From the NCBI RefSeq assembly GCF_000026545.1, contig NC_011601.1: a stretch of DNA of 64,000 nucleotides; one strand, written 5' to 3'. Positions 61,360 through 64,000 of this stretch are shown one piece after another. Position 1 is the stretch's first letter. Each line of letters starts with the position of its first letter. Origin of the DNA: Escherichia coli O127:H6 str. E2348/69 (GTDB lineage Bacteria > Pseudomonadota > Gammaproteobacteria > Enterobacterales > Enterobacteriaceae). Position numbers: made by a program.

Positions 61360-64000
61360 TGAGTTATTTCTAAAACGAGGAAAGAAAAGATATTAACTGA
61401 ACTTAATTTATAAAATTAAGTTCAGTTGCATAGATAGATCCTGTAAAGGCAGATATTCTGCGTAATGTACGACGCTAAAATTTATAAATGATTCAAACGC
61501 TCATTTAGCGTTTCAATAATATAAGTATTTACAGAGACTTGTTGCTGCGCAGCCGCATTATTAAGGCGTTCACTCAGCGATTCTGGATAGCGTAATGTAA
61601 AGGTCTTAATCTTTTCTGTACGCGCATACGGCTCAATACCCGCAGCTTTACAATCCTCAAGATACTCTCGCAGGGAAAGCTCCCCTTCTTTTTGCAGCCC
61701 CTGAATGCTGTCAGAGACAAAATCACAATAACCTGACAAGCCCAGGAATTTGCCACGAAATGCATTCAGTTCTGGCACGTAAGTGATAACAGCAGGTTGC
61801 CCGGCAATCTCCATAGAGTTTGGCGTCTTCAGTTTGATCATGGTTTTACCCCTATACTTAGTAACCAGTCACGCACGCTTTCTACAGCGCCTTTATCGGT
61901 ATCTGGCGACGGATGAGGCCGATGGAAACACGCAACGCTCATATTTAGTATGAACTTACAACGCGAACCTCTTCCTTCCTTAATTTCTCCGCCTAATGCT
62001 TTAACCAGTGACTCTATATCAGACCACTTAATCCCTTGAGGAACAGGAGATTTAAATATTTGATCCAATGTATTTTTTTGTTTCTTCCGCAAAGCCTGTA
62101 CCTGGGTTCTCATGGCATGTCCTTATGACTTCACTTTATGACATCAATAGTATGACATCACAATATGAAGTCAAGTTTCCCTTCCTTACGCCATTGTCCC
62201 AATCGTCTTCCTGAATCGCAGCAGTGCGATGGTGAAAAACGCGCCGCCAATTGCCATCAGCGTCAGGAACTGCGGCCAGACGATTTCGAATCCGGCACCA
62301 CGGTAGAGAATGGCCTGCGCGAGGCTAACAAAGTGTGTCGTCGGCATGGTCAGCATAATGTCCTGCACCATCTGCGGCATACTTTCGCGCGGCGTGGAAC
62401 CACCGGAAAGCATTTGCAGCGGCAGCAGCACCAGAATCACCAGCAGCCCCAGTTGCGGCATTGAACGCGCTATCGTCCCCATAAAAATGCCGATTGACGT
62501 GGTGGCAAACAGACTGAGCGCCACGCCCAGCATAAACAGCGGGATCGAGCCTTCTATCGGTACGCCCAGCACGCCTTTCACCATCAGCACCAGCGATAAT
62601 CCCGATACCACCAGCACCACCAGCCCCATCGACCAGACCTTTGCCATCATGATCTCAAACGGCGTTATCGGCATCACCAGTAAGTGTTCCACCGTGCCGT
62701 GTTCACGCTCGCGGATCAGTGCCGATCCGGTCAACACAATCGCCAGCATGGTAATGTTGTTGATGATCGCCATCACCCCGCCAAACCACGCGGGATCGAG
62801 GTTCGGGTTAAAGCGCATCCGGGTTTCCAGCGATACCAACGGTTCGCTGTTATCACGGTAACGCGCGACAAAGCTGTTCACTTCACCGTTGATAATATTC
62901 TGGATATAACCGTTGCCAGTGAATGCCTGGCTCATGCGCGTGGCATCGACGTTCACCTGAATATCCGGCTGGCGTCCGGCGAGGACATCACGCTGAAAAT
63001 TAGGCGGAATATTTATCGCGAAGGTATAACGTCCGGCGTCCAGTCCGGCATCCATCTCATCGGCGGTGATCATCTCCGGTGGCAAAAACCACGGGCGATA
63101 GAAGCTGTTAACGATCCGGTTCGACAACTGCGATTGATCCATATCGGCTATGGCGATCGGCGCGAGGTTCAACGATCCTGGCGTAACGGTCGCTGACGAA
63201 TACACCGACACCGTAAACGAGAAGACAATCAGCGTCAGCATCGCTTTATCACCGAGCAGACTGCGCAACTCTTTGATACCCAGATTAAAAATATTGCGTA
63301 AATGGCGCATCATCCCTCCTGTTTTTTCAGCAGCAGGATGCTTAAGCCCATCACCAGCGGTATGGCTATCAGCAACGGGATAAAAAGTTGCCACAAATCA
63401 GTCAGATCCAGCGCTTTCGAGAACGTTCCGCGGGCGATAGTCAGAAAATGACTGGTGGGATAAACCTCGCCGATCCAACGTCCTGGACCTTCCAGCGAAG
63501 CTACCGGATCGATCATCCCGGAAAACTGTGTCGCCGGGATCAACGTGATAATTGCCGTACCGAAAATGGCGGCAATCTGGCTTTTCATAAAGGTGGAGAT
63601 CAGCAGCCCCATTCCGGTGGCGATGATGATATACAGCAGCGCCGCCAGGGTGAGAGTCAGGAAACTGCCTTTATGCGGTACGCCAAACACAAACACCGAC
63701 AGGGCGCAGAGCAGGAAAAAGTTCAGCATCCCCAGCGCGATGTATGGCAGCTGTTTGCCAAGTAAAAATTCGCTACGGGTGGTGGGGGTCACGTAAAGGT
63801 TGATAATCGACCCTAGCTCTTTTTCCCGCACCACGCTAAGGGCGCTTAGCATTGACGGGATCATCATCAGCAGAAGCGGGATCACCGCCGGAACAATCGC
63901 CGGCAGGCTTTTTACGTCCGGGTTATAGCGATAGCGCGTCTCAATATTCATCAGCCCGCTTTGGCTGGCGGGTGTGGACTGTCGGCTCGCCACATCCTGT

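What the first reader, a model, noticed from the sequence alone, without database searches (positions are those of the whole stretch)
62124..62175. Four 10-bp repeats in the toxin-antitoxin promoter, likely antitoxin operators
TATGACTTCA, TATGACATCA, TATGACATCA and TATGAAGTCA are spaced 3 bp apart and overlap -35/-10-like hexamers and the Shine-Dalgarno of the toxin gene. The outer repeats are reverse complements of each other. This is the architecture expected for cooperative autorepression by an RHH antitoxin-toxin complex.
Basis: seen in the sequence. Interest (0 to 1): 0.5.

Follow-up and report, generated by a model that had tools for sequence, protein, structure and literature searches.

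The report
HicB antitoxin operator boxes, hicAB promoter
The four short repeats are real and are almost certainly the sites where the HicB antitoxin sits on its own promoter to shut off a toxin-antitoxin gene pair in E. coli; this is an expected kind of control element, although its 8-bp boxes on a 13-bp register had not been described in the literature I could search.

Summary
The window is E. coli E2348/69. The repeats lie in the 72-bp gap between the yhhJ stop codon and a minus-strand hicA-hicB operon. This operon encodes a 91-aa HicA toxin and a 119-aa HicB antitoxin with an Arc-type ribbon-helix-helix domain.

The four repeats exist at the stated coordinates. The conserved unit is an 8-bp pseudo-palindrome, TGA-NN-TCA, with starts spaced 13, 14 and 13 bp. 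The boxes cover a predicted promoter, TTGACT-16-TACTAT.

Orthologous hicAB modules in about 40 other Enterobacterales genomes have unrelated flanks. They carry the same box at about 95-fold enrichment on the same 13-bp register around -35, -10 and the 5'UTR. Spacers between boxes are not conserved.

In more distant HicB relatives on plasmids, prophages and metagenome contigs, the 8-bp box and 13-bp spacing persist. The box sequence changes together with the DNA-reading residue of the ribbon. This points to HicB as the binding protein.

The reading as autorepression operators is well supported, but only computationally. A co-repressor role for the toxin is untested.

I rate this a new member of a known kind, of modest interest. 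In 787 E. coli genomes exactly one box is deleted. About the same number (790) carry a stop at hicA codon 2.

The parts
62166..62173 (-). Operator box at register +1, read TGACTTCA on the gene strand. It lies inside the -35 element TTGACT and corresponds to the family's -35 box.
   Evidence: a box at this position is conserved in most orthologous loci
62153..62160 (-). Operator box at register +14 (TGATGTCA), in the spacer between -35 and -10. It is an exact 10-bp copy of the next box (TGATGTCATA). This register position is empty in most other genera. One of these two identical copies is the one missing in the 3-box E. coli allele.
   Evidence: degenerate counterparts in Citrobacter sedlakii L051 and Enterobacter L011
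62139..62146 (-). Operator box at register +28 (TGATGTCA), immediately downstream of the -10 hexamer and over the predicted transcription start. It corresponds to the family box at +27/28.
62126..62133 (-). Operator box at register +41 (TGAAGTCA, the inverted form of the consensus), in the predicted 5'UTR. It abuts the Shine-Dalgarno sequence and corresponds to the family box at +40/41.
62169..62174 (-). Predicted -35 hexamer TTGACT
   Evidence: the same hexamer sits inside a box in most orthologous loci
62147..62152 (-). Predicted -10 hexamer TACTAT. It fills exactly the 6-bp gap between the two central box cores.
   Evidence: sequence
62119..62123 (-). Shine-Dalgarno sequence AAGGA of hicA, 6 nt upstream of the ATG
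   Evidence: sequence
61838..62113 (-). hicA, 91-aa HicA-family toxin. The HicA domain spans residues 30-80. A 29-residue N-terminal extension is conserved in orthologues.
61482..61841 (-). hicB, 119-aa antitoxin. It has an N-terminal HicB fold and a C-terminal Arc-type RHH (ribbon K79-Y85, helices 87-99 and 104-118). Its start overlaps the hicA stop by 4 nt.
61395..61427 (-). Terminator-like hairpin (15 pairs followed by a T-run) downstream of hicB, between hicB and the convergent nikR gene

Best explanation
The four boxes are the autoregulatory operator array of a chromosomal, toxin-first hicAB type II toxin-antitoxin operon.

Proposed mechanism:
- HicB dimerises through its C-terminal Arc-type ribbon-helix-helix domain.
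- One RHH dimer reads one 8-bp pseudo-palindromic box, TGA-NN-TCA (two TGR half-sites).
- Neighbouring dimers occupy boxes 13 bp apart, centre to centre.
- In E2348/69 the occupied register positions are +1, +14, +28 and +41 relative to the start of the -35 hexamer. Bound HicB would therefore cover -35, the spacer, both flanks of -10, the start site and the early 5'UTR, and would exclude RNA polymerase.
- Repression should be relieved when HicB is degraded or titrated by excess HicA.

Shown here (computationally): the existence and non-randomness of the boxes; the identity and fold class of the proteins; family-wide conservation of box, register and promoter overlap; co-variation of box sequence with the ribbon residue.

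Inferred: one dimer per box; cooperativity between boxes 13 bp apart; the actual transcription start; repression itself; the effect of HicA.
For: Observation: all four matches to the repeat in 64 kb lie here. The paired pattern occurs twice, against 0 in 100 shuffles.

Genes: Pfam HicA_toxin, E 3.7e-9. Pfam HicB, E 3.5e-15, with weaker Arc and CopG hits. RefSeq annotates a HicA/HicB pair. The AF2 model has mean pLDDT 83. Its top Foldseek hit is B. pseudomallei HicB 6g26 (probability 1.0), and its C-terminus matches Arc at 1.9-2.9 A rmsd. A profile search of the PDB hits only Arc and AmrZ, over residues 76-118.

Promoter: TTGACT-16-TACTAT is the only promoter-like site upstream of hicA on the gene strand.

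Footprint:
- In 40 non-redundant orthologous loci from many Enterobacterales genera, TGAnnTCA occurs at 28.6 per kb in the 103 bp upstream of hicA, against 0.30 per kb elsewhere in the loci.
- The spacing mode is 13 bp (45 cases), then 26-27 bp (20 cases).
- Boxes sit at -12, +1, +27/28 and +40/41 relative to the -35 hexamer.
- Box positions carry 1.7-2.0 bits of information; spacer positions carry 0.1-0.6 bits.

Co-variation in relatives of 37-52% identity:
- xFTLRY ribbons go with TGAC[TG]TCA.
- KVTTRL ribbons go with TGACACCA / TGGTGTCA.
- KFN[VL]R ribbons go with [TC][AG]GTAC[CT][AG].
- KF[VS]LR, KVSTR and KISAR ribbons go with TGATACTA / TGGTATCA.
- An NFALR ribbon goes with TAATATCA.

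Unbiased offset scan: similar 8-mer pairs are found at offset 13 in 38 of 45 non-redundant loci, against 1-10 loci at every other offset from 9 to 19.

Precedent: HicB proteins of Y. pestis, B. pseudomallei, S. pneumoniae, S. meliloti and E. coli K-12 bind their own promoters (PMC11594946).
Against: - There is no binding, footprinting, reporter or transcription-start data for this locus or this HicB subfamily in the literature I could search.
- The promoter is only a consensus match (9 of 12 positions).
- E. coli lacks the family's -12 box and has an unusual +14 box. Its central interval is 14 bp rather than 13 bp.
- A 13-bp centre-to-centre spacing (about 1.24 helical turns) puts neighbouring dimers on different faces of the DNA. 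This differs from the 11-bp spacing in the Arc operator (from my own knowledge). The stoichiometry and any cooperativity are therefore open.
- A few distant relatives showed no obvious boxes (L073, L069/L070).
- About 38% of E. coli genomes with the locus carry a 3-box allele. The exact four-box layout is therefore not essential.
Confidence: 0.85

Rival explanations
1. The boxes are operators, but the active repressor is the HicA-HicB complex acting by conditional cooperativity. Toxin would act as co-repressor at low ratio and as de-repressor at high ratio.
For: The multiple boxes on a fixed register fit higher-order complexes. The S. pneumoniae HicAB complex binds DNA better than HicB alone, and the Y. 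pestis HicA3B3 complex also binds DNA (PMC11594946).
Against: For toxin-first modules, including E. coli K-12 and B. pseudomallei HicAB, the reported behaviour is that HicB alone represses and excess HicA destabilises binding. In about 790 E. coli genomes hicA carries a stop at codon 2, while hicB and three boxes are retained. If that stop does abolish the toxin, which I did not test, the control circuit can persist without it.
Confidence: 0.25
2. The boxes bind a host-encoded regulator rather than HicB, for example a factor that recognises TGACGTCA-like palindromes or a CRP/Sxy-type site as at the K-12 hicAB P1 promoter.
For: K-12 and B. pseudomallei hicAB promoters carry CRP-S-like motifs. 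The E. coli array contains a TGTGA.
Against: The boxes travel with the module into many genera, plasmids and prophages. Their sequence changes with the HicB ribbon residue and not with the host. The right half of a CRP site is absent (sequence). The pair pattern occurs nowhere else in the 64-kb window.
Confidence: 0.03
3. The repeats are a structural by-product with no repressor function. They could be duplicated -35-like TTGACT motifs or slippage products, or they could act at the RNA level in the 5'UTR.
For: The two central 10-mers are identical, and one copy is lost in a common allele. This shows that slippage or recombination happens here. Two boxes would be transcribed.
Against: Box positions outside the -35-like part are as conserved as those inside it, while spacers drift. 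Boxes are mostly direct repeats in other genera, so no conserved hairpin can form. The E. coli 5'UTR folds no better than shuffled sequence (z = -0.11). There is no Rfam match.
Confidence: 0.03

Closest known systems
Yersinia pestis HicA3-HicB3 operators BS1 and BS2 (Bibi-Triki et al. 2014, as summarised in PMC11594946)
   Same: It is a toxin-first hicAB operon with an RHH-type HicB that represses its own promoter. There is more than one operator, and the main one overlaps -10.
   Different: The Y. pestis operators are two 15-bp inverted repeats flanking the promoter. Here there are four 8-bp boxes on a 13-bp register. HicB3 is not a detectable sequence relative of this HicB (no PDB sequence hit at E <= 1). 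In Y. pestis, hicA3 and hicB3 are 174 bp apart; here the two genes overlap by 4 nt.
Burkholderia pseudomallei HicAB (PDB 6g26; Winter et al. 2018, as summarised in PMC11594946 and PMC10865869)
   Same: It is the best structural match to the HicB model (Foldseek probability 1.0). It has an N-terminal HicB fold and a C-terminal RHH, and its operator overlaps -10. Excess HicA relieves binding.
   Different: It has a single palindromic site, against a four-box array here. Sequence identity is 11%.
E. coli K-12 hicAB (yncN/ydcQ) with operator hicO at promoter P2
   Same: Same species, same toxin-first gene order, and autorepression by HicB.
   Different: K-12 HicB uses an HTH domain, not an RHH. 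It has two promoters, and hicO controls only the antitoxin-producing transcript. No internal promoter-like site was found inside hicA at this locus. The K-12 module is at a different chromosomal locus.
Phage P22 Arc repressor and its operator; Arc/MetJ RHH superfamily
   Same: The HicB C-terminus aligns to Arc over 43 residues (KTFTLRYPE... against PQFNLRWPR...), with E 0.018 for the profile. It superposes at 1.9-2.9 A. HicB positions T80, T82 and R84 align with Arc Gln9, Asn11 and Arg13, the base-contacting residues of Arc (the alignment is; the Arc contacts are from my own knowledge). Relatives with an FN[LV]R ribbon, as in Arc, have TAGTA-containing boxes.
   Different: The Arc operator holds two dimers 11 bp apart on one face of the DNA (from my own knowledge). 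Here the register is 13 bp and up to four or five boxes are used. Arc is a stand-alone 53-aa repressor.
Neisseria gonorrhoeae FitAB operator (from my own knowledge; not verified with the tools)
   Same: It is an RHH antitoxin of a type II TA system that reads 8-bp TG-N4-CA-type half-sites (recalled as TGCTATCA). There is a weak Pfam hit to FitA-like_RHH (E 0.35).
   Different: FitA half-sites form one inverted pair about two helical turns apart and are bound by a (FitAB)4 complex. The toxin is a PIN domain, not HicA. The literature search for this comparison returned nothing usable.

Membership tests
hicAB type II toxin-antitoxin module, class 4 of Gerdes 2024 (hicA upstream; HicB with C-terminal RHH) | Toxin with a HicA (dsRBD-like) domain and the conserved catalytic histidine | tested here: met
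   PF07927, E 3.7e-9, residues 30-80. The H-R-P-H-P motif is present and is also seen in the plasmid homologues examined.
hicAB type II toxin-antitoxin module, class 4 of Gerdes 2024 (hicA upstream; HicB with C-terminal RHH) | Antitoxin with an N-terminal partial RNase H-like HicB fold | tested here: met
   The AF2 model has four strands and a long helix in residues 9-67, with pLDDT 86-94. Its top Foldseek hits are HicB 6g26 and 6u0i.
hicAB type II toxin-antitoxin module, class 4 of Gerdes 2024 (hicA upstream; HicB with C-terminal RHH) | C-terminal ribbon-helix-helix DNA-binding domain | tested here: met
   PF05534 over residues 60-112, plus Arc and CopG hits. The profile hits Arc and AmrZ in the PDB. 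Helices at 87-99 and 104-118 follow the ribbon at 79-85.
hicAB type II toxin-antitoxin module, class 4 of Gerdes 2024 (hicA upstream; HicB with C-terminal RHH) | Bicistronic operon with hicA first, closely linked to hicB | tested here: met
   hicA is at 62113-61838 and hicB at 61841-61482, a 4-nt overlap. The same arrangement is seen in orthologues.
hicAB type II toxin-antitoxin module, class 4 of Gerdes 2024 (hicA upstream; HicB with C-terminal RHH) | HicA is toxic (an RNase) and is neutralised by HicB | not testable with these tools
   This needs expression and rescue assays. No publication on this locus was found.
Antitoxin autoregulatory operator | Located in the module's own promoter, overlapping the core elements | tested here: met
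   The boxes lie on -35, flank -10 and extend downstream of it. The promoter is predicted only, not mapped.
Antitoxin autoregulatory operator | Repeated or palindromic sites conserved together with the module, independent of genomic context | tested here: met
   About 95-fold enrichment. Boxes carry 1.7-2.0 bits per position against 0.1-0.6 bits in spacers. Flanking sequences are unrelated.
Antitoxin autoregulatory operator | Site sequence tracks the DNA-reading residues of the antitoxin | tested here: met
   The ribbon residue two positions before the invariant Arg takes the values T, N, S/V/Q or A. Each value has its own box class in relatives of 37-52% identity, while the 8-bp size and 13-bp offset are kept.
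Antitoxin autoregulatory operator | Bound by the antitoxin in vitro and needed for repression in vivo | not testable with these tools
   This needs EMSA or footprinting and reporter fusions.
Conditional cooperativity (toxin as co-repressor or de-repressor) | DNA affinity of the antitoxin rises and then falls with the toxin:antitoxin ratio | not testable with these tools
   The literature on other HicAB systems shows de-repression by excess HicA.
Arc-type operator grammar (two RHH dimers about 11 bp apart on one DNA face) | Centre-to-centre spacing of about one helical turn | tested here: not met
   The spacing is 13 bp (14 bp for the central interval in E. coli) in 38 of 45 non-redundant loci. 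Offsets of 10-12 bp are at background. The domain is Arc-like, but the site arrangement is not that of Arc.

The most novel reading that the evidence does not exclude
PF05534-type HicB antitoxins may share an undescribed RHH operator grammar. It would consist of 8-bp pseudo-palindromic boxes laid on a strict 13-bp lattice with up to five positions (-12, +1, +14, +27, +40). The specificity code would be set mainly by one ribbon residue: T for GAC, N for GTAC, and S, V or Q for GATAC/GGTATC. The array would then be a modular, slippage-prone dial. Loss or gain of whole 13-14-bp units, as in the 4-box and 3-box E. coli alleles, would reset promoter strength and repression. It might do so in step with decay of the toxin gene.
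Probability: 0.2. Interest if true: 0.55.

Novelty: new member of a known kind. Interest (0 to 1): 0.35.

Why it matters
Autorepression of a toxin-antitoxin operon by its antitoxin is textbook behaviour, so the finding does not change any concept.

Its value is practical. It gives an exact, testable operator map for an uncharacterised hicAB module present in 2075 of 5426 complete E. coli genomes, including EPEC E2348/69, O157:H7 and O104:H4. It extends this to the whole PF05534 HicB subfamily, which is common in Enterobacterales chromosomes, plasmids and prophage-like contigs.

The family-wide comparison also yields two things. One is a simple box-and-register rule (8-bp boxes, 13-bp offset). 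The other is a candidate recognition code for the RHH ribbon. Both could guide specificity-swap experiments and the annotation of operators for related antitoxins.

The natural 4-box and 3-box alleles offer a ready-made comparison of operator number.

Tried and rejected
- NCBIfam gave no family for either protein. PADLOC gave none either.
- Sequence search of the PDB with HicB or HicA found no relative. The profile search found only Arc and AmrZ. No solved structure of this subfamily is therefore available to model spacing.
- Rfam, at a permissive threshold over 61300-62400, gave no match.
- The RNA fold of the predicted 5'UTR was no better than shuffles (z = -0.11). An RNA element was rejected.
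- A CRP or CRP-S site was considered because of TGTGA in the array. It was rejected because the second half-site is absent and the conserved element is TGAnnTCA.
- Literature searches did not help. hicA/hicB/yhhJ returned no paper on this locus. RefSeq accessions returned nothing. hicAB with pathotype names returned irrelevant papers. Searching the box sequence returned only primer noise. The FitAB half-site search returned noise.
- The O157:H7 paper that mentions hicAB refers to the K-12-type module.
- S. meliloti HicB belongs to another subfamily, and its binding site is not mapped. The gonococcal HicAB paper has no operator data.
- Several distant loci were uninformative. In L062, L066-L068 and L071 the contig ends inside hicA or hicA is truncated. 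In L069/L070 the module lies downstream of fic and no boxes were seen. L073 is AT-rich, hicA and hicB are 75 bp apart, and no boxes were seen.
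Full report
**1. Where the finding lies**

The window is 100% identical to the chromosome of enteropathogenic E. coli E2348/69 over the query stretch. The local gene order is:
- nikABCDE-nikR on the + strand (nikR at 60961-61362).
- On the minus strand, a 119-aa gene (61482-61841) and a 91-aa gene (61838-62113).
- A 72-bp intergenic gap (62114-62185).
- The stop codon of yhhJ (62186), with rbbA beyond it.

RefSeq annotates the two small genes as HicB-family antitoxin and HicA-family toxin.

**2. Check of the observation**

The four 10-mers are present at 62124, 62137, 62151 and 62164 on the + strand.
- The degenerate pattern TATGAMNTCA has exactly four matches in 64 kb, all here, against 0.70 expected.
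- Two cores 13 bp apart (TGANNTCA-N5-TGANNTCA) occur twice, both here, and never in 100 shuffles.
- A lone TGANNTCA is not unusual: 23 found against 15 expected.

- Start-to-start spacing is 13, 14 and 13 bp, so the gaps between 10-mers are 3, 4 and 3 bp.
- Only the 8-bp cores of the outer repeats are reverse complements of each other (TGACTTCA and TGAAGTCA).
- The last repeat abuts the Shine-Dalgarno sequence AAGGA (62119-62123) rather than overlapping it.

Read on the gene strand, the region is cTTGACTTCAtattgTGATGTCAtactatTGATGTCAtaaagTGAAGTCAtaaggacatgccATG. The only promoter-like site upstream of hicA is TTGACT-16-TACTAT at 62174..62147.
- The -35 hexamer lies inside the first box.
- The -10 hexamer is exactly the 6-bp gap between the two central cores.
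- The last two boxes cover the predicted start region and the 5'UTR.

**3. The proteins**

HicA (91 aa):
- It matches Pfam HicA_toxin (E 3.7e-9, residues 30-80).
- Its full length, including a 29-residue N-terminal extension, is conserved in orthologues.

HicB (119 aa):
- It matches Pfam HicB PF05534 (E 3.5e-15, residues 60-112), with weak Arc and CopG hits.
- An AlphaFold2 model built on 27 orthologues has mean pLDDT 83. It shows four strands and a long helix (residues 9-67), a linker, and two helices (87-99 and 104-118) after the conserved stretch K79-T-F-T-L-R-Y-P86.
- Foldseek places B. pseudomallei HicB (6g26, probability 1.0) and an E. coli HicB3 structure (6u0i) on top. It matches the C-terminus to Arc at 1.9-2.9 A rmsd.
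- A profile search of all PDB sequences returns only Arc and AmrZ, aligned over residues 76-118.
- HicB is therefore a two-domain antitoxin with an Arc-type ribbon-helix-helix domain. No close relative has a solved structure.

The module fits class 4 of the Gerdes classification, hicAB with an RHH HicB (PMC10865869).

**4. Phylogenetic footprint**

A scan of one genome per species returned 49 loci with HicB orthologues of 58-100% identity, from Escherichia, Citrobacter, Enterobacter, Kosakonia, Trabulsiella, Photorhabdus, Xenorhabdus, Pantoea, Erwinia, Pectobacterium, Brenneria, Serratia, Sodalis, Buttiauxella, Cedecea, Budvicia and others.

The sequences upstream of hicA are unrelated between genera. 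Even so, nearly every locus carries two to four copies of TGAnnTCA, most often TGACTTCA. Over 40 non-redundant loci:
- The motif density is 28.6 per kb in the 103 bp upstream of hicA, against 0.30 per kb in the rest of the loci.
- The spacing between successive boxes is 13 bp in 45 cases and 26-27 bp in 20 cases.

Relative to the first base of the predicted -35 hexamer, the boxes sit at four positions:
- -12.
- +1, where the TTGAC[TG] -35 hexamer is part of the box.
- +27/28, touching the end of -10.
- +40/41.

These are positions on a 13-bp lattice. Box positions carry 1.7-2.0 bits of information and the spacers 0.1-0.6 bits, with the -10 hexamer in between.

E. coli E2348/69 occupies +1, +14, +28 and +41.
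- It lacks the -12 box because the yhhJ stop codon lies there.
- It has an extra box in the -35/-10 spacer.
- That extra box is degenerate in Citrobacter sedlakii and Enterobacter.

**5. Which protein binds: co-variation**

The ribbon K-T-F-T-L-R-Y-P is invariant or nearly so in the orthologues that share the TGACTTCA box. I therefore looked at more distant relatives on plasmids, metagenome contigs and viral or prophage contigs (80 loci).

The 8-bp box and the 13-bp offset persist, but the box sequence changes with the ribbon:

| Ribbon | Boxes |
|---|---|
| KSFTLRY | TGACGTCA / TGACATCA |
| KRLTLRV | TGACGTCA / TGACACCA |
| KVTTRL (21 loci) | TGACACCA-13-TGACACCA-27-TGGTGTCA-13-TGATACTA |
| KFN[VL]R or RFN[VL]R | [TC][AG]GTAC[CT][AG]-13-same |
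| KF[VS]LR, KVSTR, KISAR | TGATACTA, TGGTATCA, TAGTATCA |
| NFALR | TAATATCA-13-TAATATCA |

The residue two positions before the invariant Arg (T82 in E. coli) aligns with Asn11 of Arc. Asn11 is a base-contacting residue of Arc (from my own knowledge). This residue tracks the box class.

An unbiased scan tested all offsets from 9 to 19 for similar 8-mer pairs in the 90 bp upstream of hicA.
- Such pairs occur at offset 13 in 38 of 45 non-redundant loci, against 1-10 loci at any other offset.
- Among loci whose ribbon is not FTLRY, the count at offset 13 is 27 of 34.

This is the strongest available evidence, short of an experiment, that HicB is the protein that reads the boxes. It also suggests that the 13-bp register is a property of the protein family.

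**6. Mechanism**

The best-supported model is classical autorepression.
- RHH dimers of HicB bind the pseudo-palindromic boxes, one dimer per box.
- Together they cover -35, the flanks of -10, the start site and the early 5'UTR, and so block RNA polymerase.

Other HicB proteins bind and repress their own promoters (PMC11594946):
- Y. pestis HicB3 uses two 15-bp inverted repeats.
- B. pseudomallei HicB uses one palindrome over -10.
- E. coli K-12 HicB uses hicO.

In those systems excess HicA relieves binding.

A 13-bp offset equals about 1.24 helical turns, so adjacent dimers cannot lie on one DNA face as in the Arc operator. Any cooperativity would have to run through the N-terminal domains and the flexible linker (pLDDT 64-73). 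This last step is inference.

**7. Rival explanations**

- A host regulator is unlikely. The boxes move with the module through many hosts and replicons, and they co-vary with HicB.
- An RNA-level role is unlikely. The boxes are mostly direct repeats, the E. coli 5'UTR folds no better than shuffled sequence (z = -0.11), and Rfam has no match.
- Mere duplication of -35-like motifs does not explain the full 8-bp conservation or the boxes downstream of -10.

**8. Population variation in E. coli**

- The locus is present in 2075 of 5426 complete genomes.
- The four-box arrangement is found in 1258 genomes.
- An allele with a 14-bp deletion that removes exactly one of the two identical central units (TGATGTCATA...) is found in 787 genomes. 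In that allele the boxes sit at +1, +14 and +27, and the best -10 match becomes TAAAGT.
- A hicA variant with ATG-TAA, a stop at codon 2, is found in 790 genomes.
- The two 3-box E. coli loci I inspected, O104:H4 (L002) and strain D1 (L004), both carry this stop. RefSeq annotates a 76-aa HicA from an internal start in them. I did not check genome by genome that the 787 and the 790 are the same set.
- A three-box allele with an intact hicA exists in Escherichia sp. E1V33. The deletion and the stop codon are therefore separable.

**9. Comparison with what is known, and novelty**

- The element works like the operators of other type II antitoxins. The module passes every membership feature of a class-4 hicAB system that could be tested in silico.
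- It differs from the characterised HicB operators in site design. It has four short boxes on a 13-bp register, rather than one or two longer inverted repeats.
- It differs from Arc in spacing.
- I found no publication on this locus or on operators of the PF05534 subfamily in the searchable library. That library does not cover most subscription journals.

I rate the finding as a new member of a known kind with modest interest. The family-wide box-and-register rule and the candidate recognition code are the parts most worth testing.

Noticed in passing
window 62147-62160 (the 14-bp unit); loci L002 and L004 around 3690-3800 and 2190-2300: A common E. coli allele (787 genomes) lacks exactly one 14-bp unit of the array. 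The two 3-box E. coli loci inspected (O104:H4 and strain D1) also have ATG-TAA at hicA codon 2. That stop is found in 790 genomes. RefSeq then calls a 76-aa HicA from an internal start. The toxin may be decaying while hicB and the operators are kept.
   Followed up: partly
window 61838-62113 (hicA residues 1-29): HicA carries a 29-residue N-terminal extension (MRTQVQALRKKQKNTLDQIF...) ahead of the Pfam HicA domain. It is conserved across orthologues and in the plasmid homologues. Its role is unknown.
   Followed up: no
L003 (E. coli O157:H7 WS4202) 1-1500, compared with window 60961-61480: In O157:H7 the left neighbour of hicB is not nikR. It is a block encoding an FGGY-family kinase, an HPr-family protein and a class II aldolase. 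In strain GDSC2227PM (L006) an IS1 element and yhiM follow nikR, and hicAB, yhhJ and rbbA are absent. The nikR-yhhJ junction appears to be a variable spot.
   Followed up: no
L077-L156 (IMG/VR contigs): Many close and distant relatives of this hicAB module lie on viral or prophage-like contigs of 30-40 kb. These include 76-83% identical copies with the same four TGACTTCA boxes. The family seems to be frequently phage-borne.
   Followed up: partly
L061 (Vibrio parahaemolyticus 2,081-bp plasmid) about 110-145: A tiny plasmid has only a HicB homologue annotated. Upstream of it lies a 31-bp perfect palindrome containing two TGATATCA boxes 13 bp apart. The sequence before it looks like the 3' end of a hicA-like reading frame.
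   Followed up: no
L129 (IMG/VR contig), 90 bp upstream of hicA: A distant relative with ribbon GKISARLTP has four boxes (TGGTATCA, TGATACTA, CGGTATCA, TGATACTA) at 13, 13 and 13 bp. This contiguous four-box array resembles the E. coli one.
   Followed up: no
window 61395-61427: A 15-pair AT-rich hairpin with T-runs lies between the convergent nikR and hicB genes. It is probably a bidirectional terminator.
   Followed up: no
protein P0191: A 5,280-aa protein in the representative library matches the HicB profile over a short stretch (profile positions 42-65, E 3.5e-13). I did not examine it.
   Followed up: no
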